Part shown: positions 45,194-55,555 of the stretch, piece by piece | How the letters are laid out: each line of letters opens with the position of its first letter | How positions within the stretch are numbered: position 1 is the first letter of the stretch | From: Escherichia coli | Lineage (GTDB): Bacteria > Pseudomonadota > Gammaproteobacteria > Enterobacterales > Enterobacteriaceae | Strand: one strand, 5' to 3' | Assembly (NCBI RefSeq): GCF_045037415.1 | Contig: NZ_CP173438.1 | Length of the DNA: 64,000 bases | Notes under the pieces: model-generated | Told to the model about the DNA's origin: nothing | The model's database searches: none | What the model saw: only the letters and a program-made list of their open reading frames with translations | Made by a program: the position numbers and the translations under genes

Positions 45194-46477
45194 ATGGCTG
45201 ATACAAAAGCAAAACTCACCCTCAACGGGGACACAGCTGTTGAACTGGATGTGCTGAAAGGCACGCTGGGTCAAGATGTTATTGATATCCGTACTCTCGG
45301 TTCAAAAGGTGTGTTCACCTTTGACCCAGGCTTCACTTCAACCGCATCCTGCGAATCTAAAATTACTTTTATTGATGGTGATGAAGGTATTTTGCTGCAC
45401 CGCGGTTTCCCGATCGATCAGCTGGCGACCGATTCTAACTACCTGGAAGTTTGTTACATCCTGCTGAATGGTGAAAAACCGACTCAGGAACAGTATGACG
45501 AATTTAAAACTACGGTGACCCGTCATACCATGATCCACGAGCAGATTACCCGTCTGTTCCATGCTTTCCGTCGCGACTCGCATCCAATGGCAGTCATGTG
45601 TGGTATTACCGGCGCGCTGGCAGCGTTCTATCACGACTCGCTGGATGTTAACAATCCTCGTCATCGTGAAATTGCCGCGTTCCGCCTGCTGTCAAAAATG
45701 CCGACCATGGCCGCGATGTGTTACAAGTATTCCATTGGTCAGCCATTTGTTTACCCGCGCAACGATCTCTCCTACGCCGGTAACTTCCTGAATATGATGT
45801 TCTCCACACCGTGCGAACCGTATGAAGTTAATCCGATTCTGGAACGTGCTATGGACCGTATTCTGATCCTGCACGCTGACCATGAACAGAACGCCTCCAC
45901 CTCCACCGTGCGTACCGCTGGCTCTTCGGGTGCGAACCCGTTTGCCTGTATCGCAGCAGGTATTGCTTCACTGTGGGGACCTGCGCACGGTGGTGCTAAC
46001 GAAGCGGCGCTGAAAATGCTGGAAGAAATCAGCTCCGTTAAACACATTCCGGAATTTGTTCGTCGTGCGAAAGACAAAAATGATTCTTTCCGCCTGATGG
46101 GCTTCGGTCATCGCGTGTACAAAAACTACGACCCGCGCGCCACCGTAATGCGTGAAACCTGCCATGAAGTGCTGAAAGAGCTGGGCACCAAAGATGACCT
46201 GCTGGAAGTGGCTATGGAGCTGGAAAACATCGCGCTGAACGACCCGTACTTTATCGAGAAAAAACTGTACCCGAACGTCGATTTCTACTCTGGTATCATC
46301 CTGAAAGCGATGGGTATTCCGTCTTCTATGTTCACCGTGATCTTCGCTATGGCACGTACGGTTGGCTGGATCGCCCACTGGAGCGAAATGCACAGTGACG
46401 GTATGAAGATTGCCCGTCCGCGTCAGCTGTATACCGGCTACGCGCAGCGTGATTTTAAGTCGGATATTAAGAAGTAA
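45194..46477 (+). CDS. gltA: citrate synthase
   Basis: 427 aa starting [23 protein letters not shown]; divergent from sdhC across a 708-bp regulatory region. Confidence 0.98.
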
Positions 46478-46494
46478 AAATGACACCGACAAAA

Positions 46495-46519
46495 CCCTGC
46501 GTGGACACGCAGGGTTTTT
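46495..46519. terminator. shared hairpin terminator between convergent gltA and TRAP permease gene
   Basis: CCCTGCGT-ggac-ACGCAGGG followed by TTTTT on the plus strand and a shorter T-run on the minus strand. Confidence 0.7.
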
Positions 46520-46523
46520 AATT

Positions 46524-47834
46524 CTACACCAGCAGCAAAGATATTGCCGGAATATAGGTAATGACCAACAGAAGTAAAATAAGACTGATCAGTAATGGCA
46601 CCGCTTCACGCATAAATTGCCCGACAGAAACCTGTACGGTATTACATACCAGCAGCATCACCGTTCCGACAGGTGGTGATAACGTTCCTAACGATAAGTT
46701 GAGGATCATAATGATGCCAAAATGCACCGGATCAATGCCAAAATGAGCCACCACGGGTTTAAGTAATGGGACTAATATCAGCAGAATGGCACTACCTTCA
46801 AGGAACATGCCAAGCACCAGCAGCAATAGATTGATAATCAATAAAAAGACGTATTTATTATCGGTCAGAGAAGTTACAAACTCCGCAACCGTGATACCTG
46901 CCCGCTCAAGGGAAAATATCCAGCCCAGCGCGGCACTCGCCATAATGATTAACATGACCGATGCCGTGGAACGCGCCGTCTCAGAGAGTGCTGTAAATAC
47001 ATGGCTGATTTTCAGTTCGCGATAAATTACAAAACCAATAAACATTACCAATAATACTGCTACCGCTCCGGCTTCCGTTGGCGTAAAGATATTTGCCCGA
47101 ATACCACCGATAACCGCAACAATTAAGAACAGTGCTGGCCAGGCCTGCACCAGCGCCACTGACACTTCTTTCGGTTTTGGCCAGTGTTCGCTGGAAGGTT
47201 TTAAACCGCGACGAATAGCCACCAACCATACGGTAACGATCAACATGGCGGAGCACAGCAGACCTGGCAGGATCCCGGCCATAAACATGGAGCCGATGGA
47301 GACATCCGCCACCAGTCCGTAAAGGATCAGTGCAATACCCGGTGGAATAATTGGTGTAATCAGCGAACCACTTGCCGTTATCGCCGCCGCAAAGCCACGG
47401 GAATAACCTTTCTGTTCCATTTCCGGCACCATCATGCGCGATAACATTGCGGCATCCGCCAGATTTGAGGCACTGACACCGCCCATCATGGTACTGACCA
47501 GAATATTAGCCCCACCCAGGCCACCGCGCATTCTGCCAATCAACACGTTGGCAATTTGCAAAATACGCGCGGCAATACCGGTATAGCTCATTAACGTGCC
47601 TAATAAGATAAAAAACGGAATAGCTAACAGCGAAGGGGTTTGCGTCGTGGCAATCAAACGCTGAATTGCCACCATTAACGGCACATTTGAATAGCAAAGG
47701 AAGTAGGTCAGAATGCCGCAAAACATCGCCAGCCATACCGGCATATTGATAAATAAACAGACGAACATAAGCGGAATGATCATCAGCCAGTTATCCAGCC
47801 AGCTTCCCGCCAGTAATTCACTCAATGCTGTCAT
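46524..47834 (-). CDS. TRAP transporter large permease subunit (DctM family)
   Basis: 436-aa polytopic membrane protein; 1-nt overlap with upstream DctQ-like gene. Confidence 0.85.
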   Translation of the reverse strand: MTALSELLAGSWLDNWLMIIPLMFVCLFINMPVWLAMFCGILTYFLCYSNVPLMVAIQRLIATTQTPSLLAIPFFILLGTLMSYTGIAARILQIANVLIGRMRGGLGGANILVSTMMGGVSASNLADAAMLSRMMVPEMEQKGYSRGFAAAITASGSLITPIIPPGIALILYGLVADVSIGSMFMAGILPGLLCSAMLIVTVWLVAIRRGLKPSSEHWPKPKEVSVALVQAWPALFLIVAVIGGIRANIFTPTEAGAVAVLLVMFIGFVIYRELKISHVFTALSETARSTASVMLIIMASAALGWIFSLERAGITVAEFVTSLTDNKYVFLLIINLLLLVLGMFLEGSAILLILVPLLKPVVAHFGIDPVHFGIIMILNLSLGTLSPPVGTVMLLVCNTVQVSVGQFMREAVPLLISLILLLLVITYIPAISLLLV

Positions 47835-48295
47835 TATTCACCTTCTTTGCGTGGCGTTTTCTTGATCAGTTGTAAGGCAGTAAAACAGGCGACACCGATA
47901 GCGCCAACCGTGACGGCAATATCGATCCAAAACCAGGATATTTTTAATATTTGCGTGGTTTTAAAGGCTGTCCCGGCAGCTAATTTCCATGCTGACCAGG
48001 CCATGACCACCAGCAAAATAATAGACATCAGAGAGACTAAAAACGCTAATATACGTTGCCCGCGTGAAGTAAGTGCATCGGCTAAAAATGGAATCGATAA
48101 ATGGGTATTATCTCGTTCAGCAACAACCGCACCAAACATGACTACCCAAATCATTAATAAACCGGAAACCTCTTCTGTCCACTGTAATGGCATATGAAAA
48201 CAGTAACGCATTATTACCGCAGCAATGGTCATGATTACCAATATAAAGAGCGTTAATACCGCAGCAACTTCAATCATTTTCCCTAAAAGACGCAT
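47834..48295 (-). CDS. TRAP transporter small permease subunit (DctQ family)
   Basis: about 153 aa with 4 predicted TM helices; start set at MRLLGKM (GAGG RBS) rather than ORF-track start at 48331. Confidence 0.75.
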   Translation of the reverse strand: MRLLGKMIEVAAVLTLFILVIMTIAAVIMRYCFHMPLQWTEEVSGLLMIWVVMFGAVVAERDNTHLSIPFLADALTSRGQRILAFLVSLMSIILLVVMAWSAWKLAAGTAFKTTQILKISWFWIDIAVTVGAIGVACFTALQLIKKTPRKEGE

Positions 48296-48354
48296 AAACA
48301 CCTCTGCTCTTAACGGTCGGTGCCGAAACACCGACCAGTCCTTATGCCATGAAG

Positions 48355-49323
48355 TTATTTCAGCTGTTGCTGAATAGTGTCATACAAACCAGGGGTCCAT
48401 TCCGGGAATTGTTGATAGACTTTTAAGGCTTTTTCTTTGAAAGGGGCGACGTCAGGATAGATGATTTCCACGCCCTGCTCCTGCATGGTTTTCAACATTG
48501 TCGCATCCTGCTCAGTGGTAATTTTCTGGCTATATAAACCAGCTTCATACGCTGTCTGGTGAATAATATCTAACTGCGCAGGTGTCAGGGTACTGAAAAA
48601 CGCTTCGCCACCCAACCATAATGATGTATTGGTCAGATAGTTCACCATTGACAGATATTTCGCCTGCTCATGCAGCTTTTGCCCATAGAGAACAGAAACC
48701 GGGTTTTCCACACCATCGATCATCCCCTGAGTCAGCGCCGGATAAACATCTCCCAGCGGCATTGGTGTTGGGGTTGCGCCCATCGCTTCGATAGCTTTAA
48801 TCTGCATGACGTTATTCGGCACGCGGATCTTCATCCCTTTCAAGTCTTCAGGTGTACGAATCGGTTTTTTAGCAATGATCTGCCTGGTACCGTACAGATA
48901 GTTGCTCATGACAATATGCACACCTTTTTCCCGTAGTTTCTGTTCTTTTTGTTTAAACCAGTCACTGGCATAAATCGCAAACAGTTTCTGCGGATCTTCG
49001 GTTAAATAAGGCCCAAACAATATTCCCAAGTCTGCATCGTAGTCAGTTAAAAATCCTACATCACTGATGGTGATAATATTCATCCCCATCAACGCTTGTT
49101 CAGTAATATCTTGTTTAGAACCTAACTGTGAACTTGGGTAAAGTTCGAAAACAATATCTCCATTGCTTTTTTTCTTCACAAGTTCTGCCCAGTGCTTCAC
49201 TACTGTATCCGCTGGCTCGCCGGGGTTACTTTCATAGGCGATTTTGATAGTTACCGGTGCGGCATTCAGCATCGGACTAAATAAAGCTAAAAGAAATAAA
49301 AGTGGTGTCAGTAATTTTTTCAT
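48355..49323 (-). CDS. TRAP transporter periplasmic solute-binding protein (DctP family)
   Basis: 322 aa; signal peptide MKKLLTPLLFLLALFSPMLNA; DctP-like length and organisation. Confidence 0.85.
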   Translation of the reverse strand: MKKLLTPLLFLLALFSPMLNAAPVTIKIAYESNPGEPADTVVKHWAELVKKKSNGDIVFELYPSSQLGSKQDITEQALMGMNIITISDVGFLTDYDADLGILFGPYLTEDPQKLFAIYASDWFKQKEQKLREKGVHIVMSNYLYGTRQIIAKKPIRTPEDLKGMKIRVPNNVMQIKAIEAMGATPTPMPLGDVYPALTQGMIDGVENPVSVLYGQKLHEQAKYLSMVNYLTNTSLWLGGEAFFSTLTPAQLDIIHQTAYEAGLYSQKITTEQDATMLKTMQEQGVEIIYPDVAPFKEKALKVYQQFPEWTPGLYDTIQQQLK

Positions 49324-49350
49324 TATTATTACCTGTAAGAGCTTTATCGA

Positions 49351-50547
49351 TTAACGGGGATCTGCCCGACAGACTGCACTTTTGCTGTAATCAAATGCTT
49401 TATACGTTAAAACAAACTCCTGATGTTCCAGTCGTTCTGCGGCACAATATTGACCGTTGGCGACATGTTCAATCACCTGCATAATATCGTCTGCAATATC
49501 GTCGAGCGTTGCGCCTTCGCTAATTACACGACCGGCATTAACGTCCATATCGTCAGATAAATGCTCCCACGTCTGCGGGTTATTACACACTTTAATAATA
49601 GGAGCGATCACTGAACCAATAACTGAACCGCGACCTGTGGTAAATAACACCATATGACAGCCAGAGGCGATAAGTTCCAGTGCTTCTGAGGAATCGTTAA
49701 TATTCGGATACCCAAAACGAGGTTCACCATCAGGCACCACGTCCATCAACCAAAGCCCAGGAAAGGGCGTTTGTTGCGTCGGCAAAATAACGCCAGCAAT
49801 CAGCGCATCGCCCGACTTGGTATAAGCCCCAAGGGATTTTTCTTCCTGAGTGGTTAAGCCGCCTTCAGCATTACCGTTAGAAAAACTCCCCAGCCCCATC
49901 AAACTGTAATAACGTTCGGCTTTTGTCATTGCCACTTCGATGGCATCACGTGCCTGCGAACTAGCCGCGCGCGACATCATATGCTGCTCACAACCAAGCA
50001 ACTCACCGCTTTCTTCAAAAATACAGGTAGCCCCTTTCTCCAGCAGTTGGTCAAAGGCACGTCCTACTGCCGGGTTACCCGTGATACCACTGGTGCCATC
50101 GGAGCCACCGCAGATAGTACCAACCACCAGGTCGCTCCAGTTCAGGATACAACGCGGTGTATCCGCAAGCTGTTCCAGCATTTCAGCGACCAACTGCTTA
50201 CCCAGAGTAATGGTGTTGGTCGTGCCTTTATTTTCCTGAATGACCAGCGTATGGCACGGTCGCCCACTTTCTCGTACTTCTTGCTCCAGCCGACGGCGAT
50301 CGAAATTCTCGCACCCCAGCGAAATAATCAGTACACCACCTACGTTGCTATGAGTCGCCAGATTTTTCACCAGCCGATAGCCATAATCGCTGGGATAACA
50401 ACCTGAAAAACCAAAATACTGCACGTCGTGACAAGGAAATCCTTCGGCAATCTTTTTAGCGACATGGCTGGCACACTCCACCATAAAGATTACCTGCACA
50501 GTATTACGAATACCTGGTCGACCATTTTGCCGTACATAACCTTCCAT
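49351..50547 (-). CDS. UxaA/GarD-family sugar-acid dehydratase, large catalytic subunit
   Basis: 398 aa resembling the C-terminal catalytic domain of altronate/galactarate dehydratases; start overlaps stop of upstream SAF gene. Confidence 0.75.
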   Translation of the reverse strand: MEGYVRQNGRPGIRNTVQVIFMVECASHVAKKIAEGFPCHDVQYFGFSGCYPSDYGYRLVKNLATHSNVGGVLIISLGCENFDRRRLEQEVRESGRPCHTLVIQENKGTTNTITLGKQLVAEMLEQLADTPRCILNWSDLVVGTICGGSDGTSGITGNPAVGRAFDQLLEKGATCIFEESGELLGCEQHMMSRAASSQARDAIEVAMTKAERYYSLMGLGSFSNGNAEGGLTTQEEKSLGAYTKSGDALIAGVILPTQQTPFPGLWLMDVVPDGEPRFGYPNINDSSEALELIASGCHMVLFTTGRGSVIGSVIAPIIKVCNNPQTWEHLSDDMDVNAGRVISEGATLDDIADDIMQVIEHVANGQYCAAERLEHQEFVLTYKAFDYSKSAVCRADPR

Positions 50548-50858
50548 TATGCTTTTTCCTCTGACTGATAGCCGGCATCATCATGATGAAAAATGGCGAT
50601 GGCATTGCTGGCAAGATTATGGGAATGCACATGTTCACCCATGGCAATATCGCGAGTGGCGTGTCCGATAATGGCGCCGTATTTCAGAATCGAATCACCA
50701 TTGTTCAGCGCTTCGCAGGCCAGTTTGTGCCCCAGGGTAACGGAACTACAGGCCACCATTTCCCCCTCATCCCACCAGACAATATCGCCACTGGCGATGT
50801 CATTCAGCGCGACTACACAGTTATCTTTGGCATGTAGCTTTAACGCACGTTTGCGCAT
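50547..50858 (-). CDS. UxaA-family dehydratase small subunit (SAF domain)
   Basis: about 103 aa from MRKRALKLHAKDNCVVAL with perfect GGAGG RBS; ORF-track start at 50963 judged an over-extension. Confidence 0.7.
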   Translation of the reverse strand: MRKRALKLHAKDNCVVALNDIASGDIVWWDEGEMVACSSVTLGHKLACEALNNGDSILKYGAIIGHATRDIAMGEHVHSHNLASNAIAIFHHDDAGYQSEEKA

Positions 50859-50872
50859 AATTCCTCCGTACA

Positions 50873-51628
50873 TCAGAAGCCGATCAATGCGCCGCCATCC
50901 ACCACCAGCACCTGACCACTGACAAACGCCGCTGCGTCTGAAGCCAGATAAACCGCAGCCCAACCGATATCCTCCGGCTTGCCGAATTTTTTCATCGGGG
51001 TACGACCCAGGATTTTGTTACGGCGTTCGTCATCACCTTCAATGGCCTTACGCAACATTGGTGTATCGATCCAGCCTGGCGCAATACCATTGACGCGAAT
51101 CCCATGAACGGCAAGCTCCGTGGTCATACCGCGAATCATGCCGAGATAGGCTGACTTCGCTGCGCTGTAGCCAGTAACCAGAGGCTGCCCAAGAAATGAG
51201 GTCATCGATGCAGTAAAAAGCACACAGCCTTTACCGCGTTGTTTCATATGCGGCACCAGCGCTTTGGTTAACGCAAATGCGCCGACTACGTGAACGTCGA
51301 GTACTGACTCAAAATCACTGACGCTCATCTCTTCAATCGGTTTTTTGCAGTGATTGCCTGCGTTATTGACCAGGATATCGATAGCCCCGTGTTCGCTAAT
51401 AAGCACATCAACTTTTTCCTGCGCGGCTGCGGTATCCCCGACATCCATTTGTATCCAACTGGCCTGCGACCCCAATGTTCCGGCGGTCGCTTGCGCCAGC
51501 TCGCCGTTCAGGTCAGCAATAATGACCTTCGCCCCGCTGACTATCATGCATTTCGCCATTGCCAGCCCCAGCCCACTGGCTGCACCGGTGATCAACGCGG
51601 TTTTGTTATGTAAAGAAAAAGCATTCAT
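50873..51628 (-). CDS. short-chain dehydrogenase/reductase, KduD/IdnO-like
   Basis: 251 aa; TGAASGLG cofactor motif and YSAAK catalytic motif. Confidence 0.85.
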   Translation of the reverse strand: MNAFSLHNKTALITGAASGLGLAMAKCMIVSGAKVIIADLNGELAQATAGTLGSQASWIQMDVGDTAAAQEKVDVLISEHGAIDILVNNAGNHCKKPIEEMSVSDFESVLDVHVVGAFALTKALVPHMKQRGKGCVLFTASMTSFLGQPLVTGYSAAKSAYLGMIRGMTTELAVHGIRVNGIAPGWIDTPMLRKAIEGDDERRNKILGRTPMKKFGKPEDIGWAAVYLASDAAAFVSGQVLVVDGGALIGF

Positions 51629-51639
51629 GGTGTCGCTCC

Positions 51640-52653
51640 TTAAAGGTCAATGAGGATTTTGGTATACGCGCCGGGATCACTTGCCCAGTCGCTAAAAGCG
51701 TGATCAGCCTGTTCCAGCGGGTAGTGAGCACTCACCAGATTGCTGACCGGATAACGCCCGGACTCCATCAATGCCAGCACGGCACGAAAATCCGCCACGG
51801 TGGCATTGCGCGAACCACGGATATCCAGTTCTTTCATCAGGAACTGCGCACTCTGATAACTCACTGGCTGTTTGGCGTAACCGACATAAACCACACGACC
51901 GCTAAACGCCACCAACCCTGTAGCCTGTTCAATGGTTTGTTGATTACCCACCGCTTCAATCACCACTTCCGGGCCGCGACCGTCATTTAACAGCACCAGT
52001 TCTGCCGCCACGTCACATTGCTGCGAATTAAGAAAACGTTGCGCACCGCATTCCAGGGCAATGTTCCGCTTGCGATCATCAATATCGATAGCAATTACGC
52101 GCGCCCCCATGGCGGATGCCGCGGCGATAGCGCCAAGGCCAATTACCCCACAACCGATAACTGCGACCCATTCACCCACATTAATTTGCGCACGTCTGGC
52201 CGCATGTAGTCCCACGGCCAGCGGTTCTACCAGCGCTAACTCATCAACACTTAAGGCATTACAGACAATGACTTTATGTGCAGGCATCGTCAGTTGTTGC
52301 GCCATCCCCCCCTGACGTTGCACACCAAGAGTTTGGTTGTTTTTACAGGCGTTAGGACGACCGCTCAGACAGGAGCTGCACACGCCACACTCAGTGCAAG
52401 GCAGAACGACCACCCGGTCACCTGGCTTGATCGCCCCTGCCATATCGCCAGTTGCCAGCACCGTGCCGCCAATTTCATGCCCCGGAATACAGGGATAATT
52501 AACCAGCGGATTTAGTCCCCGCCAGGTATTGAGGTCAGAACCACACAGTCCGACACGCTCAACATTGATTAGCACTTCTCCTTTACCGCAGACAGGTTCG
52601 GGGATATCAACAAATCGCGCCTGACTTCCCTGCTCAATGGTTAATGCCTTCAT
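51640..52653 (-). CDS. Zn-dependent medium-chain polyol/sugar-acid dehydrogenase
   Basis: 337 aa; GHE catalytic-Zn motif, structural-Zn Cys cluster, GxGxxG Rossmann motif. Confidence 0.85.
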   Translation of the reverse strand: MKALTIEQGSQARFVDIPEPVCGKGEVLINVERVGLCGSDLNTWRGLNPLVNYPCIPGHEIGGTVLATGDMAGAIKPGDRVVVLPCTECGVCSSCLSGRPNACKNNQTLGVQRQGGMAQQLTMPAHKVIVCNALSVDELALVEPLAVGLHAARRAQINVGEWVAVIGCGVIGLGAIAAASAMGARVIAIDIDDRKRNIALECGAQRFLNSQQCDVAAELVLLNDGRGPEVVIEAVGNQQTIEQATGLVAFSGRVVYVGYAKQPVSYQSAQFLMKELDIRGSRNATVADFRAVLALMESGRYPVSNLVSAHYPLEQADHAFSDWASDPGAYTKILIDL

Positions 52654-52665
52654 TCATTGCTCTCC

Positions 52666-53352
52666 TTACATTACGCCGAAGGTTTCAAAGGCCTGTACCG
52701 TGCTCATGCCATCACTGATGGCTTTGCGCACTTCACTTTCAGTTGCCACTTTTTCCAGGGCCTGGGTAATAACTTCTTTCTCAACAACCTGGGGAATAAT
52801 CAGTAATCCGTCACGATCACCAAACACGATATCGCCCGGATTCACTCGCACGCCGTGAAATTCAATAGGTACGCCGAAGTCGATGACCTTGCCGCGCGGA
52901 CCTTGATCCTGTGCGTAAGTGCCATGACAAAAAGTGGGAAATTTCAATTCAAGAATTTCAGCAGAGTCACGGGCGTAACCATCGAGTACCGCACCTGCTG
53001 CTTTCAGATGCATGGCACGGGTAGACATCAACCCGCCCCACAAGGCATAGCGCAGAGAGCTGCCCGTAGTGATGTAAACATCGTTCTCTTTGAGGGCATC
53101 CAGCGCTTCAAACATGATGCCAAACGGTTTTTCGCCAATCGCCGTCTTACCCGACGTCGATTTGGTTTCGTAAACGTCCGACTCCAGCACCGGCATTGCC
53201 CGGCCTGCCACCACCGTATTCACATCCAGCGGCTTGATTGCCGGAGAAACAAACTGGTGCATATAGCCCAGCGTGTCGAGAATATCGCCAACCACGGCGG
53301 TAAATAGCCGGGTTTTCATCAAAGCAAAAAGTTCGTTATCACTCTTCCACAT
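52666..53352 (-). CDS. RraA-family protein, putative class II 4-hydroxy-2-oxoacid aldolase
   Basis: about 228 aa from MWKSDNEL (ATG with AGGA RBS); RraA-like fold inferred by recall; first gene of the operon. Confidence 0.6.
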   Translation of the reverse strand: MWKSDNELFALMKTRLFTAVVGDILDTLGYMHQFVSPAIKPLDVNTVVAGRAMPVLESDVYETKSTSGKTAIGEKPFGIMFEALDALKENDVYITTGSSLRYALWGGLMSTRAMHLKAAGAVLDGYARDSAEILELKFPTFCHGTYAQDQGPRGKVIDFGVPIEFHGVRVNPGDIVFGDRDGLLIIPQVVEKEVITQALEKVATESEVRKAISDGMSTVQAFETFGVM

Positions 53353-53361
53353 TATTTTCGT

Positions 53362-53390
53362 CCTGTAAGCCTGTTTAACAGGTTTACAGG
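53362..53390. promoter_or_regulatory. nested inverted-repeat candidate operator
   Basis: CCTGTAAGCCTGTTTAACAGGTTTACAGG: two CCTGT arms then two ACAGG arms; inner tGTttaACa fits GntR-type GT-Nx-AC; 10-38 bp upstream of the first operon gene. Confidence 0.5.
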
Positions 53391-53615
53391 GTAAGGAGAA
53401 AAAGCGCACAATACTGCGAAGGGCGTCACGAAAAAGTTGTGTATTTACTATTTCTTCGCCACTCTTTCACACAATATGTCTTTGATTCGCACTGCATGGC
53501 GGGCGCACAGGCGCAGTAGTCTATTGATAATCAAGGGTTCTGGAGGAAAATATGAAGGATACAGTCCCGGTATTCTGGATTTCACCGACCAGGAAAAAGT
53601 ACAACAGGAGTAAAA

Positions 53616-54329
53616 ATGAGTGAGAGTGCGTTATTGACCAGCGTAACGTTATCGTCACAGGTCAAAAATCATATTCTTAATCTGATCGCCGAACAAAAAT
53701 TGACACCGGGGATGCCAGTTCCCAGTGAAGTTCAGCTGATTCAGAAATTGGGTGTCAGTCGGGGTATTGTGCGTGAGGCCTATCGTTCACTTGCCGCCCT
53801 GGGGATTCTGGAAACGCACAGCGGTAAAGTGCCACGAATCAAAAAATTTGATGATGAAGTGCTGCGCGTGGTGTTTGGATTTGCCCTGGCGACCGAACAA
53901 GTGACAACAGAGCAAATTCTTCAAGTACGCCGCTGGCTGGAGTTGGGCGTTGTGGAAGCTGCTGCCCGTAATGGCGAAGAGGAAGATTTTGCTAACCTAC
54001 GGGCTGAAATGGCAAAAATCCGCGAACAGTTCAATGATGTTGAAAGCTTTATCACCCATGATATCCGCTTCCATCAGTTACTTGCCGTTGCCTCAAAAAA
54101 TCCGCTTTTTATGATGTTATTGCAGGCATTACATCAGCAGTTGCGGCAATCCATCCAGGAGGGTTTAAACGCCCAAAGCGATCAGAAAGAGTATGGCAAT
54201 CACATCATCACACTACACCAGAAAATCTGCGATGCTGTGTGTGCCAGGGATGTCGAAACGGCGACTCAAGCCATGAAATCACACTTCGACAGCCCGGTCA
54301 GTGCACTGATCAATAATTCCTCGTCATAA
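53616..54329 (+). CDS. GntR-family (FadR/FCD subfamily) transcriptional regulator
   Basis: 237 aa; N-terminal HTH (KLGVSRGIVREAYRSL), C-terminal all-helical FCD-like domain; divergent from the catabolic operon. Confidence 0.85.
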   Translation: MSESALLTSVTLSSQVKNHILNLIAEQKLTPGMPVPSEVQLIQKLGVSRGIVREAYRSLAALGILETHSGKVPRIKKFDDEVLRVVFGFALATEQVTTEQILQVRRWLELGVVEAAARNGEEEDFANLRAEMAKIREQFNDVESFITHDIRFHQLLAVASKNPLFMMLLQALHQQLRQSIQEGLNAQSDQKEYGNHIITLHQKICDAVCARDVETATQAMKSHFDSPVSALINNSSS

Positions 54330-54508
54330 GACTTATCTCAGTTCAATCGTTTACTCTTCCCTCTTTTACAAACGAGAGGGAGACAACGGTACTTAATACG
54401 CCCTTTAGCCAAAATCTGTCTTTTTCTTGATTACCGCTATTTTTTCGTTGAGGCGCATTCTTTATGCTGTATCGATACACCAAAGGTAAGTTAAACAGGG
54501 AGTGACGG

Positions 54509-55555
54509 ATGCCAGTGCTACAGTGGGGAATGTTATGTGTTCTGTCACTTCTCCTTTCTATTGGCTTCCTCGCTTTACATCTCCCGGCGGCACTCCTGCT
54601 TGGCCCGATGATCGCGGGGATCATCTTCAGTATGCACGGAGTCACTCTGCAACTTCCCCGCTCCGCTTTTCTCGCTGCCCAAGCCATTCTTGGCTGCATG
54701 ATTGCACAAAACCTCACTGGTTCGATTCTCACCACGCTGGCCGTCAACTGGCCGATCGTGCTTGCGATTTTACTGGTGACGCTGCTTTCCAGCGCCATCG
54801 TGGGTTGGTTATTGGTGCGCTATAGCTCACTGCCTGGGAATACCGGGGCCTGGGGTTCTTCTCCTGGCGGCGCGGCGGCAATGGTCGCAATGGCGCAAGA
54901 TTACGGCGCAGATATTCGCCTGGTGGCGTTTATGCAATATCTGCGAGTGCTGTTCGTCGCAGGAGCCGCTGTTCTGGTCACCCGCATGATGCTGGGCGAT
55001 AACGCTGAAGCGGTTAACCAGCAGATCGTCTGGTTCCCGCCAGTGAGCATTAATCTCCTGCTTACGATTTTGCTCGCGGTCGTTGCCGGTACGGCGGGAT
55101 GCTTGCTACGTCTTCCTTCCGGCACGATGCTCATCCCGATGCTGGCGGGCGCAGTGCTCCAGTCTGGTCAGCTCATCACGATTGAACTCCCGGAATGGCT
55201 GCTGGCGATGGCATATATGGCAATTGGCTGGCGGATTGGTCTTGGTTTCGATAAGCAAATATTACTGCGGGCATTGCGCCCGCTACCGCAAATCCTGCTG
55301 TCGATTTTTGCTCTGCTGGCTATTTGTGCGGGCATGGCGTGGGGGCTGACCCGGTTTATGCATATTGATTTTATGACCGCCTACCTCGCCACCAGCCCCG
55401 GCGGGCTTGATACCGTGGCGGTCATCGCCGCAGGGAGCAATGCCGATATGGCGCTCATCATTGCGATGCAAACCCTGCGCCTGTTCAGTATTTTGCTGAC
55501 GGGGCCTGCCATCGCACGGTTTATTTCAACCTATGCGCCGAAGCGTTCGGCCTAG
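54509..55555 (+). CDS. abrB: AbrB-family membrane protein
   Basis: 348-aa polytopic membrane protein; position next to nei as in K-12. Confidence 0.9.

What the first reader, a model, noticed from the sequence alone, without database searches (positions are those of the whole stretch)
46524..49323. DctPQM-type TRAP transporter acquired alongside the catabolic genes
Substrate-binding protein, small permease and large permease are encoded as separate genes at the 3' end of the operon. The known E. coli TRAP system is YiaMNO for 2,3-diketo-L-gulonate, so a second TRAP system at the gltA locus with a probable organic-acid substrate is notable. The ligand specificity of the DctP protein would identify the pathway substrate.
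Basis: partly seen in the sequence, partly recalled or inferred. Interest (0 to 1): 0.55.

Follow-up and report, generated by a model that had tools for sequence, protein, structure and literature searches.

The report
Sugar-acid TRAP transporter beside gltA
This is an intact three-gene TRAP uptake system at the end of a conserved sugar-acid breakdown operon found in about 12% of E. coli genomes (mainly ST131); it most likely imports L-galactonate and/or L-fuconate, is not a C4-dicarboxylate carrier, and is an ordinary though experimentally uncharacterised member of a known transporter group.

Summary
Window 46524-49323 (minus strand) encodes DctM, DctQ and DctP as three separate genes. They close an eight-gene operon: RraA-like protein, Zn-dehydrogenase, SDR, split UxaA dehydratase, then DctPQM. 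A FadR/GntR regulator is transcribed divergently.

The binding protein is about 70% identical to the solved Ochrobactrum protein Oant_3902 (PDB 4OVT) and keeps the carboxylate-binding Arg/Arg/Asn triad. In 55 other species its orthologues nearly always sit beside an LgoD-like dehydrogenase, and usually beside UxaA and a UxaB-like reductase. That is the L-galactonate pathway. So the likely substrate is L-galactonate and/or its 6-deoxy analogue L-fuconate, not C4-dicarboxylates or the YiaMNO substrate.

The island is in 660 of 5,426 complete E. coli genomes. It is also at this locus in E. albertii and E. whittamii, with flank-like divergence and strong purifying selection. This points to an old Escherichia trait lost in K-12 and CFT073, not a recent acquisition.

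The less ordinary part lies upstream of the transporter. A split UxaA and a widespread RraA-like probable aldolase replace the UxaB/UxaA/KdgK/Eda steps. The pathway order is inferred, not shown.

The parts
46524..47834 (-). dctM, TRAP large permease (436 aa)
   Evidence: TIGR00786 scores 390 bits against a cut-off of 268. The YiaN equivalog scores only 254 of the 800 needed. Multiple hydrophobic segments. dN/dS 0.025 against E. albertii.
47834..48295 (-). dctQ, TRAP small permease (153 aa; a GTG at 48331 is an alternative start)
   Evidence: Pfam PF04290, E 4.7e-29. Four hydrophobic segments, and its stop overlaps the dctM start as TAATG. RefSeq uses the same start.
48355..49323 (-). dctP, periplasmic solute-binding protein (322 aa, signal peptide about residues 1-20)
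   Evidence: NF037995 is above its cut-off. PDB 4OVT (Oant_3902): E 1.3e-142, 68% identity, TM 0.96 to the AF2 model of pLDDT 89.8. R147, R167 and N207 are invariant in 32 orthologues and align with the GTRQ / LRVPN / DGQENP motifs of a SiaP orthologue.
49351..50547 (-). UxaA/GarD-family dehydratase, large subunit (398 aa)
   Evidence: Galactarate dehydratase model and PDB 6U7L match the C-terminal part only. 28% identical to K-12 UxaA. 71% to Propionivibrio, 58% to Sphingomonas and 55% to Snuella homologues in sugar-acid or fucose clusters.
50547..50858 (-). UxaA/GarD-family dehydratase, small (SAF-like) subunit (103 aa)
   Evidence: Matches model positions 2-79 of the galactarate dehydratase model. 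Its stop overlaps the large-subunit start. Homologous small ORFs carry Pfam SAF.
50873..51628 (-). SDR oxidoreductase (251 aa), proposed 5-keto-hexonate (tagaturonate-type) reductase
   Evidence: Best named matches are gluconate 5-dehydrogenase, KduD and FabG types. 72% identical to the Propionivibrio SDR that sits with UxaC. Only 35% to the SDR of a classic L-fucose cluster.
51640..52653 (-). Zn-dependent medium-chain dehydrogenase (337 aa), proposed L-galactonate/L-fuconate 5-dehydrogenase
   Evidence: 35% identical to K-12 LgoD. 46-52% identical to the dehydrogenases next to orthologous DctPQM in 39 of 55 other species. Matches the PRK10083 family below its cut-off.
52666..53352 (-). RraA-like protein (228 aa), proposed class II pyruvate aldolase for the 2-keto-3-deoxy acid
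   Evidence: Pfam RraA-like. The DG..RD motif is kept at the position of the catalytic Arg-123 and metal-binding Asp-124 of HMG/CHA aldolase (PMC5065237). Homologues of 61-67% identity sit next to dehydratases of three superfamilies.
53362..53390 (.). 29-bp palindrome CCTGTAAGCCTGTTTAACAGGTTTACAGG, probable operator of the FadR/GntR regulator
   Evidence: Read directly from the sequence. Related palindromes lie at the same place in other Escherichia species, Entomohabitans, Serratia and Propionivibrio. Binding was not tested.
53616..54329 (+). FadR/GntR-family transcriptional regulator (237 aa), divergent from the operon
   Evidence: Partial matches to the NanR, LldR and GlcC models. RefSeq annotation. 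Conserved with the enzyme module: 68% in Entomohabitans, 58% in Serratia, 43% in Propionivibrio.
46491..46519 (.). Hairpin with flanking A/T runs between the convergent gltA and dctM, probable bidirectional terminator
   Evidence: Sequence AAAACCCTGCGTGGACACGCAGGGTTTTT. It lies inside the island-specific DNA, because K-12 homology ends at 46471.
46472..54419 (.). Whole 7.95-kb island, relative to K-12
   Evidence: BLASTN breakpoints against K-12: homology ends at 46471 and resumes at 54420. K-12 carries ybgOPQD in this interval instead.

Best explanation
The three genes encode a working TRAP importer: a periplasmic binding protein plus a Q/M membrane unit driven by an ion gradient. Its substrate is an L-hexonate, namely L-galactonate and probably also its 6-deoxy analogue L-fuconate.

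Proposed steps:
1. DctP captures the acid through its carboxylate (R147/R167/N207) and hands it to DctQM.
2. The Zn-dehydrogenase oxidises C5, giving D-tagaturonate or its 6-deoxy form.
3. The SDR reduces the 5-keto group to the opposite configuration, giving D-altronate or its 6-deoxy form.
4. The two-subunit UxaA-type dehydratase makes the 2-keto-3-deoxy acid (KDG or 6-deoxy-KDG).
5. The RraA-like class II aldolase cleaves this, without phosphorylation, into pyruvate plus D-glyceraldehyde or lactaldehyde.
6. The divergent FadR/GntR regulator controls the operon through the conserved palindrome.

Shown here: gene identity and intactness, family membership, close orthology to Oant_3902, conserved gene neighbourhoods, and purifying selection.

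Inferred: the ligand, the order of the enzymatic steps, the aldolase activity, the operator, and the coupling ion (Na+ by analogy with SiaPQM).
For: Transporter:
- Family models and Pfam support all three components.
- The AF2 model of DctP has pLDDT 89.8 and matches 4OVT with TM 0.96.
- 4OVT is Oant_3902, and 4O8M is the second-best match. From my memory of the PDB titles, which are truncated in the output, these hold L-fuconate and L-galactonate.
- Leyn et al. cite Vetting 2015 for a TRAP system with dual L-fuconate/L-galactonate specificity (PMC5507952).
- The carboxylate triad is invariant.

Context of the transporter orthologues, in 55 non-Escherichia species with DctP of at least 60% identity:
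- 54 keep DctM.
- 39 have a Zn-dehydrogenase at least 40% identical to the island's.
- 37 have a full-length UxaA.
- A UxaB-like tagaturonate reductase is found in 23 loci.
This is the LgoD-UxaB-UxaA logic of E. coli L-galactonate catabolism. The island Zn-dehydrogenase is 35% identical to LgoD.

Enzyme module:
- In Propionivibrio, the same RraA (61%), SDR (72%) and split UxaA (71%) genes sit with UxaC, which makes tagaturonate or fructuronate. This argues that the SDR reduces a 5-keto-hexonate and that the dehydratase takes altronate-type substrates.
- The SDR's nearest solved relatives include gluconate 5-dehydrogenases and KduD.
- The RraA-like subfamily is paired with UxuA in Ensifer and with an enolase-superfamily dehydratase in Snuella, as well as with split UxaA.
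- It keeps the catalytic Arg-Asp motif of HMG/CHA aldolase.

Function retained: dN/dS is 0.02-0.24 with no stop codons in three other Escherichia species.
Against: - No ligand-binding or enzyme data exist for any protein of this island. The ligand names for 4OVT and 4O8M come from my memory, and Vetting 2015 could not be read.
- The large dehydratase subunit is only 28% identical to the real E. coli altronate dehydratase.
- It is 55-58% identical to split enzymes in clear L-fucose contexts: Sphingomonas (aldo-keto reductase + dehydratase + SDR + FAH hydrolase + mutarotase) and Snuella (next to a GH29 fucosidase). Watanabe et al. infer that a heteromeric member is an L-fuconate dehydratase (PMC6336799). 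Direct dehydration of L-fuconate is therefore a live alternative.
- If an aldolase cleaves the unphosphorylated keto-deoxy acid, C5 inversion is not obviously needed.
- E. coli already has LgoT/LgoD, UxaB/UxaA and KdgK/Eda for L-galactonate, so the island would be redundant for that substrate.
- Serratia keeps RraA, Zn-dehydrogenase and SDR at 74-80% identity but has a much more divergent split dehydratase (43%).
- Another RraA-family enzyme, FlDet, is a dehydratase/decarboxylase and not an aldolase (PMC8563752).
Confidence: 0.5

Rival explanations
1. A dedicated L-fuconate route. The TRAP system imports L-fuconate, and the two-subunit UxaA-type enzyme dehydrates it directly to 2-keto-3-deoxy-L-fuconate. 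That product is then either cleaved by the RraA-like aldolase to pyruvate plus L-lactaldehyde, or oxidised at C4 by the SDR and split by the RraA-like protein acting in place of the usual FAH hydrolase. The Zn-dehydrogenase handles lactaldehyde or propanediol, or a side substrate.
For: - The large subunit is 58% identical to the dehydratase of a textbook non-phosphorylative L-fucose cluster in Sphingomonas and 55% to one next to an alpha-L-fucosidase in Snuella.
- Watanabe et al. infer L-fuconate dehydratase activity for heteromeric family members (PMC6336799).
- 4OVT is the closest structure, and from memory it holds L-fuconate.
- A 6-deoxy substrate would explain why a non-phosphorylative cleavage enzyme is encoded in bacteria that already have KdgK/Eda.
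- The core trio of dehydratase, SDR and RraA parallels dehydratase, SDR and FAH.
Against: - The SDR is only 35% identical to the fucose-cluster SDR and resembles 5-keto-hexonate reductases.
- The Zn-dehydrogenase, conserved with this transporter in 39 of 55 species, would have no clear role.
- No fucose dehydrogenase, lactonase or mutarotase is present.
- The closest homologous module (Propionivibrio, 71%) carries UxaC, which points to tagaturonate and altronate.
- No RraA-family diketo-acid hydrolase is known.
Confidence: 0.25
2. The transporter and operon serve a different sugar acid, for example another hexonate or a hexuronate such as D-galacturonate, L-gulonate or 6-deoxy-L-talonate. The similarity to L-galactonate/L-fuconate binders would then mislead on the exact ligand.
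For: - TRAP binding proteins can change ligand at moderate divergence.
- 4PFB, the third-best hit, was deposited under a different molecule name.
- The enzyme module is combined with different entry enzymes and carriers in other taxa: UxaC plus another TRAP in Propionivibrio, and MFS in Serratia.
Against: - About 70% identity to Oant_3902, with invariant residues clustered in the conserved sequence blocks across 32 orthologues.
- The orthologue group is almost always next to LgoD-like, UxaA and UxaB-like genes.
Confidence: 0.15
3. It is a C4-dicarboxylate (succinate/malate/fumarate) DctPQM, as the RefSeq product name and its position next to TCA-cycle genes might suggest.
For: - RefSeq names the binding protein 'C4-dicarboxylate TRAP transporter substrate-binding protein'.
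- The genes lie next to gltA and sdhCDAB.
Against: - The name is a generic family label.
- The operon encodes sugar-acid enzymes.
- The closest structures are Oant_3902 and the A. succinogenes protein. 4OVS, which from memory is a succinate complex, is only a distant hit (E 1e-22).
- Adjacency to gltA follows from where the island sits; in K-12 the same site holds fimbrial genes.
Confidence: 0.03
4. The locus is a cryptic remnant that is no longer expressed or useful in E. coli.
For: - It is absent from 88% of complete genomes.
- The locus is prone to loss.
- In Entomohabitans the dehydratase is truncated and dctP is cut with dctQM missing.
- One E. coli genome carries an ISApl1 insertion.
Against: - All nine genes are intact in essentially all carriers.
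- dN/dS is 0.02-0.24 across Escherichia species with saturating dS.
- The regulator and its palindrome are conserved.
Confidence: 0.05

Closest known systems
Oant_3902 TRAP binding protein of Ochrobactrum anthropi (PDB 4OVT) and the Actinobacillus succinogenes protein (PDB 4O8M), EFI targets
   Same: Same fold (TM 0.96 and 0.93), with 68% and 43% identity. Same carboxylate-binding Arg/Arg/Asn triad. The orthologous DctQM genes are adjacent, and the group is associated with an LgoD-like dehydrogenase.
   Different: In Brucella/Ochrobactrum the partner enzymes are a full-length UxaA and a UxaB-like reductase. In E. coli they are a split UxaA, an SDR and an RraA-like protein. Ligand binding by the E. 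coli protein is untested.
E. coli K-12 L-galactonate pathway (LgoT, LgoD, UxaB, UxaA, then KdgK/Eda)
   Same: The same chemical logic is proposed: oxidation at C5 by a Zn-dependent dehydrogenase, reduction to the D-series acid, then UxaA-family dehydration to a 2-keto-3-deoxy acid (PMC5507952).
   Different: Uptake is by TRAP, not the MFS carrier LgoT. The dehydrogenase is only 35% identical to LgoD. An SDR replaces UxaB. The dehydratase is two-subunit and 28% identical to UxaA. An RraA-like protein is encoded where K-12 relies on the unlinked KdgK/Eda.
YiaMNO, the K-12 TRAP system for 2,3-diketo-L-gulonate
   Same: Same transporter class and three-gene layout.
   Different: Not orthologous. 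YiaN and YiaM equivalog scores are 254 of 800 and 50 of 260. The locus and partner enzymes differ.
Non-phosphorylative L-fucose pathway with a heteromeric UxaA/GarD-type L-fuconate dehydratase (Watanabe et al.)
   Same: Two-subunit UxaA-family dehydratase, 55-58% identical to ones in clear fucose clusters. An SDR follows the dehydratase.
   Different: No fucose dehydrogenase, lactonase, mutarotase or FAH hydrolase. The SDR is not of the fucose-cluster type (35%). A Zn-dehydrogenase and an RraA-like protein are added.
HMG/CHA aldolase (PDB 3NOJ) and other RraA-family enzymes, such as FlDet of Flavobacterium sp. UMI-01
   Same: RraA fold family. The Arg-Asp catalytic and metal-binding motif is conserved. 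The substrates in question are 2-keto-4-hydroxy acids.
   Different: Very distant from HMG/CHA aldolase (E 3.8e-7) and 29% identical to FlDet. It forms its own widely conserved subfamily (61-67% identity across phyla) that has no characterised member among the papers and structures I could search.
SiaPQM sialic-acid TRAP transporter
   Same: Serves as the mechanistic template: a binding protein with R127/R147/N187 equivalents, plus Q and M membrane subunits.
   Different: 25-28% identity, a different ligand, and Q and M are separate proteins here.

Membership tests
TRAP transporter (DctPQM type) | Three components: a DctP-family binding protein, a small DctQ membrane protein and a large DctM membrane protein | tested here: met
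   NF037995 and TIGR00786 are above their cut-offs. Pfam DctQ, E 4.7e-29. The genes are adjacent and overlapping.
TRAP transporter (DctPQM type) | Secreted binding protein with the conserved arginine that binds the ligand's carboxylate | tested here: met
   An N-terminal hydrophobic leader is present. R167 (with R147 and N207) is invariant in 32 orthologues and aligns with the LRVPN, GTRQ and DGQENP motifs of a SiaP orthologue. The role of these residues is taken from published SiaP work, from memory.
TRAP transporter (DctPQM type) | Ion-gradient-driven, binding-protein-dependent uptake | not testable with these tools
   Needs transport assays.
L-galactonate/L-fuconate-binding TRAP group (Oant_3902 type) | Close sequence and fold similarity to the solved member | tested here: met
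   E 1.3e-142, 68% identity, TM 0.96.
L-galactonate/L-fuconate-binding TRAP group (Oant_3902 type) | Genomic association with L-galactonate catabolic genes | tested here: met
   39 of 55 orthologous loci have the related Zn-dehydrogenase, 37 of 55 have UxaA, and 23 have a UxaB-like gene. The island carries the dehydrogenase itself.
L-galactonate/L-fuconate-binding TRAP group (Oant_3902 type) | Measured binding of L-galactonate or L-fuconate | not testable with these tools
   The ligand names of 4OVT and 4O8M were truncated in the tool output and come from memory. The source paper is not held.
C4-dicarboxylate DctPQM | Orthology to succinate/malate/fumarate-binding DctP, and a dicarboxylate-related context | tested here: not met
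   The best structures are Oant_3902 and the A. succinogenes protein; 4OVS, which from memory is a succinate complex, scores only E 1e-22. The operon encodes sugar-acid enzymes.
YiaMNO (2,3-diketo-L-gulonate TRAP) | Scores above the NCBIfam equivalog cut-offs for YiaN and YiaM | tested here: not met
   253.6 against 800, and 49.6 against 260.
L-hexonate catabolism by C5 inversion (LgoD/UxaB/UxaA type) | Zn-dependent 5-dehydrogenase related to LgoD | tested here: inconclusive
   35% identity to LgoD, and below the PRK10083 cut-off (171 against 376). It is 46-52% identical to the enzymes in L-galactonate-type clusters. Activity is untested.
L-hexonate catabolism by C5 inversion (LgoD/UxaB/UxaA type) | UxaB tagaturonate reductase and UxaA altronate dehydratase | tested here: not met
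   There is no UxaB homologue; an SDR is present instead. The dehydratase is split and 28% identical to UxaA. A functional equivalent is inferred from the Propionivibrio UxaC context.
Non-phosphorylative L-fucose pathway | L-fucose dehydrogenase, lactonase, L-fuconate dehydratase, then either L-KDF dehydrogenase plus FAH hydrolase or an L-KDF aldolase | tested here: inconclusive
   A dehydratase homologue is present at 55-58% identity to fucose-cluster enzymes. Fucose dehydrogenase, lactonase and FAH are absent, and the SDR is 35% identical to the fucose-cluster SDR.
RraA-like class II pyruvate aldolases (HMG/CHA aldolase type) | Catalytic Arg followed by a metal-binding Asp (Arg-123 and Asp-124 in the P. 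putida enzyme) | tested here: met
   The motif DGYARD in the island protein aligns with DG..RD in solved family members. Residue roles are from PMC5065237. Aldolase activity is untested.
SuyAB (R)-sulfolactate sulfo-lyase (the other known two-subunit UxaA-family enzyme) | Context of sulfonate metabolism and sulfite export | tested here: not met
   No such genes appear in the island or in any homologous locus examined. All contexts are sugar-acid or glycoside related.

The most novel reading that the evidence does not exclude
The operon encodes an undescribed, self-contained, non-phosphorylative route for L-galactonate and, specifically, L-fuconate (oxidised fucose). In this route a widespread but uncharacterised RraA-like subfamily is the missing 2-keto-3-deoxy-hexonate aldolase. 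High-affinity TRAP uptake would then give ST131 and some other lineages access to a host- or mucus-derived sugar acid that K-12-like strains cannot use.
Probability: 0.3. Interest if true: 0.6.

Novelty: new member of a known kind. Interest (0 to 1): 0.35.

Why it matters
The transporter itself is an ordinary member of a structurally characterised TRAP group, so its likely ligand can be named without new discovery. It matters modestly for three reasons.

- It is a stable accessory metabolic trait of the pandemic ST131 lineage that K-12 and CFT073 lack.
- Its substrate class could be relevant in the gut or urinary tract. L-galactonate comes from plant and pectin breakdown, and L-fuconate is oxidised fucose.
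- The linked RraA-like protein belongs to a subfamily that is highly conserved across phyla and repeatedly paired with sugar-acid dehydratases, yet no member has an assigned activity. Assigning it would annotate thousands of genes.

Tried and rejected
- A single-sequence AlphaFold run of DctP gave an unusable model (pLDDT 44). I repeated it with a 32-sequence alignment.
- Vetting et al. 2015 and Watanabe 2020 (JBC) could not be read. The PDB titles in the Foldseek output were cut before the ligand name, so ligand identities rest on memory.
- Searches for the RefSeq protein accessions and for ST131 plus TRAP found no study of this island. The only mention was a passing note of a 'unique altronate hydrolase' in ST131 strain SCB34.
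- I considered that the RraA-like protein is a FlDet-type keto-deoxy-glucarate dehydratase/decarboxylase, which would imply an oxidative route through galactarate. I rejected this as the leading idea. FlDet is only 29% identical, no alpha-ketoglutarate-semialdehyde dehydrogenase is linked, and a 6-deoxy ligand could not enter such a route.
- I considered SuyAB sulfolactate lyase. No sulfonate context was found anywhere.
- I considered YiaMNO and C4-dicarboxylate DctPQM. The family scores and the contexts do not fit.
- I considered recent horizontal acquisition. The composition is unremarkable (GC 0.42-0.54), and divergence tracks the flanking core genes.
- One context look-up found nothing (P0175).

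Full report
**What is there.** The window is the E. coli gltA-sdh-suc region. It is identical to many ST131 chromosomes. Between gltA (45194-46477, +) and abrB (54509-55555, +) lies a 7.95-kb segment (46472-54419) with no counterpart in K-12, which has the fimbrial genes ybgOPQD in that position.

The segment carries a minus-strand operon of eight tightly packed genes:
- an RraA-like protein (52666-53352)
- a Zn-dependent dehydrogenase (51640-52653)
- an SDR (50873-51628)
- the small (50547-50858) and large (49351-50547) subunits of a UxaA/GarD-family dehydratase
- dctP (48355-49323), dctQ (47834-48295) and dctM (46524-47834)

A FadR/GntR regulator (53616-54329) is transcribed divergently.

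**The transporter is real and complete.**
- DctM and DctP pass curated NCBIfam cut-offs.
- DctQ matches Pfam PF04290 with E 4.7e-29 and has four hydrophobic segments.
- DctP has a hydrophobic leader.
- The dctQ and dctM coding regions overlap as TAATG, which suggests coupled translation.
- A hairpin flanked by A/T runs (46491-46519) separates dctM from the convergent gltA.
- The YiaN and YiaM equivalog models score far below their cut-offs, so this is not the K-12 YiaMNO system.

**What the binding protein says.** By sequence, the best solved relative is 4OVT (E 1.3e-142), followed by 4O8M. An AlphaFold model built on 32 orthologues (pLDDT 89.8) superposes on 4OVT with TM 0.96 at 68% identity, and on 4O8M with TM 0.93 at 43%. 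The output identifies 4OVT as Ochrobactrum anthropi Oant_3902 and 4O8M as an Actinobacillus succinogenes EFI target, but the titles are cut before the ligand. From memory they read 'with bound L-fuconate' and 'with bound L-galactonate'. I could not verify this, because Vetting et al. 2015 is not held. Independent text support for TRAP systems with dual L-fuconate/L-galactonate specificity is the citation of that work in PMC5507952.

R147, R167 and N207 are invariant in the 32 orthologues. They align with the GTRQ, LRVPN and DGQENP motifs of a SiaP orthologue. From published SiaP work, these motifs hold the carboxylate-binding residues. The invariant residues fall in a few conserved sequence blocks shared across the whole orthologue group, so one specificity for the group is likely.

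**Gene neighbourhoods of the transporter.** A scan of one genome per species returned 60 loci. In 55 non-Escherichia loci with DctP of at least 60% identity:
- 54 keep DctM.
- 39 have a Zn-dehydrogenase at least 40% identical to the island's.
- 37 have a full-length UxaA.
- 23 loci have a protein that NCBIfam relates to tagaturonate reductase.

This set of dehydrogenase, UxaB-like reductase and UxaA is the E. coli L-galactonate logic: LgoD makes D-tagaturonate, UxaB makes D-altronate, and UxaA makes KDG. The island dehydrogenase and the Brucella one are both about 35% identical to K-12 LgoD and about 50% identical to each other. This is the main reason to name L-galactonate (with L-fuconate as its 6-deoxy analogue) as the substrate. 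It also rules out the RefSeq label 'C4-dicarboxylate'.

**The enzymes upstream are not the standard set.**
- The island dehydratase is split and only 28% identical to K-12 UxaA.
- Its large subunit is 71% identical to one in Propionivibrio dicarboxylicus. That cluster reads GntR, an unrelated DctPQM (27% DctP), RraA-like (61%), SDR (72%), split dehydratase, and UxaC. UxaC makes tagaturonate or fructuronate. This context therefore implies that the SDR reduces a 5-keto-hexonate and that the dehydratase acts on an altronate-type acid.
- The SDR's closest named relatives are gluconate 5-dehydrogenases and KduD, which fits.
- Serratia has the same regulator, RraA-like protein, dehydrogenase and SDR (58-80% identity) with an MFS carrier in place of TRAP, and with a more divergent split dehydratase (43%).

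So the enzyme module and the transporter are separable units.

**The competing signal.** The same large subunit is 58% identical to the dehydratase of a textbook non-phosphorylative L-fucose cluster in Sphingomonas phyllosphaerae: aldo-keto reductase, dehydratase, SDR, FAH hydrolase and RhaM-type mutarotase. It is 55% identical to one next to a GH29 alpha-L-fucosidase in Snuella. Watanabe et al. infer from gene context that a heteromeric family member is an L-fuconate dehydratase. They also show that D-arabinonate, D-altronate, L-fuconate and L-galactonate share their C2-C4 configuration, and that a related enzyme takes all four (PMC6336799). Direct dehydration of L-fuconate is therefore a serious rival. 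I cannot separate the two models by sequence. They differ mainly in whether C5 inversion precedes dehydration and in what the Zn-dehydrogenase is for.

**The RraA-like protein.**
- Its subfamily is remarkably conserved, at 61-67% identity in Proteobacteria, Flavobacteriia and Bacteroidales.
- It is found next to dehydratases of three different superfamilies: split UxaA (Escherichia, Serratia, Propionivibrio, a Bacteroidales MAG), UxuA (Ensifer) and an enolase-superfamily enzyme (Snuella).
- It keeps the Arg-Asp pair that in HMG/CHA aldolase stabilises the pyruvate enolate and binds the metal.
- The simplest reading is a class II aldolase for 2-keto-3-deoxy-hexonates. Such an enzyme would be needed for a 6-deoxy substrate that KdgK cannot phosphorylate.
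- The only sugar-acid-active RraA-family enzyme I found in the literature is FlDet, a keto-deoxy-glucarate dehydratase/decarboxylase (PMC8563752). It is 29% identical to the island protein, so it shows the family's versatility more than this protein's function.

**History and distribution.** The island is chromosomal and single-copy in 660 of 5,426 complete E. coli genomes. In 546 of them it is at least 99% identical, and many of these are labelled ST131. In 114 it is 95-99% identical. One genome has an ISApl1 insertion. K-12 has ybgOPQD in its place. CFT073 has only a fimbrial pseudogene remnant.

The island is also present in the same abrB-gltA interval in E. albertii, E. whittamii and a divergent E. 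coli lineage, with these features:
- Nucleotide identities (82-96%) are similar to those of the flanking genes.
- dS is comparable to that of gltA.
- dN/dS is 0.02-0.24.
- There are no stop codons.

Its position relative to ybgOPQD differs. In E. albertii and locus L002 it lies on the gltA side. In E. whittamii it lies on the abrB side. The pattern fits an old Escherichia trait at a rearrangement-prone site with repeated loss, and does not fit a recent acquisition by ST131.

**Regulation.** A 29-bp palindrome (53362-53390) lies just upstream of the first gene. Related palindromes with the core AACCTGT-N3-ACAGGTT occur at the same place in other Escherichia species, Entomohabitans, Serratia and Propionivibrio. 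It has the shape of a FadR/GntR operator. That it is kept in a cluster whose entry enzyme is UxaC suggests that the effector is a shared intermediate and not the imported acid. This is inference only.

**Verdict.** It overstates the novelty and the 'acquired' history. The transporter is a new member of a known, structurally characterised group. The linked enzyme set is a variant of the L-hexonate C5-inversion scheme whose last step, and possibly its order, remain to be shown. Published mentions are limited to a 'unique altronate hydrolase' noted in an ST131 isolate (PMC5728477). A different TRAP island has been described in another B2 strain (PMC12928451).

Noticed in passing
window 53362-53390: A 29-bp near-perfect palindrome lies directly upstream of the operon's first gene. 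Its core is conserved in Escherichia species, Entomohabitans, Serratia and Propionivibrio, and it is probably the FadR/GntR operator.
   Followed up: partly
window 46472-54419 versus L063 (K-12), L073 (CFT073), L002, L003, L004: The abrB-gltA interval exists in at least five states: ybgOPQD only (K-12); a fimbrial pseudogene remnant only (CFT073); island only (this window); ybgOPQD then island (E. albertii, L002); and island then ybgOPQD (E. whittamii). This marks it as a hotspot of loss and rearrangement.
   Followed up: partly
L059 8766-10519 (Entomohabitans teleogrylli): The homologous locus looks decayed. The dehydratase large subunit is called as 327 aa with a premature end, dctP covers only residues 1-158, and dctQM are missing.
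   Followed up: no
L067 9001-14486 (Serratia): The regulator and enzyme set are the same but with an MFS transporter in place of TRAP. The split dehydratase is only 43% identical, although the other enzymes are 74-80% identical, which suggests a swapped dehydratase.
   Followed up: partly
L066 3350-8872 and 10001-12641 (Snuella sedimenti): There are two different RraA-like genes. One sits beside a split UxaA, an MFS carrier and a GH29 alpha-L-fucosidase. The other, 65% identical to the E. coli protein, sits beside an SDR and an enolase-superfamily dehydratase.
   Followed up: partly
H1/H16, NZ_CM135823.1 (strain FXCREC145): An ISApl1 (IS30-like) element is inserted within the island in one ST131-like genome. 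It is the only disrupted copy seen among the listed hits.
   Followed up: no
window 46524-49323 versus 49351-53352: The TRAP genes are more AT-rich (GC 0.42-0.48) than the enzyme genes (0.49-0.54). This fits the idea that transporter and enzyme module were joined from different sources.
   Followed up: no
L005/L007/L055 (Citrobacter), L057 (Edaphovirga), L008 (Affinibrenneria): These enterobacterial orthologues of DctPQM (75-78% identity) lack the island's enzyme set. In Citrobacter the only neighbours are a distant Zn-dehydrogenase (35%) and a regulator.
   Followed up: no
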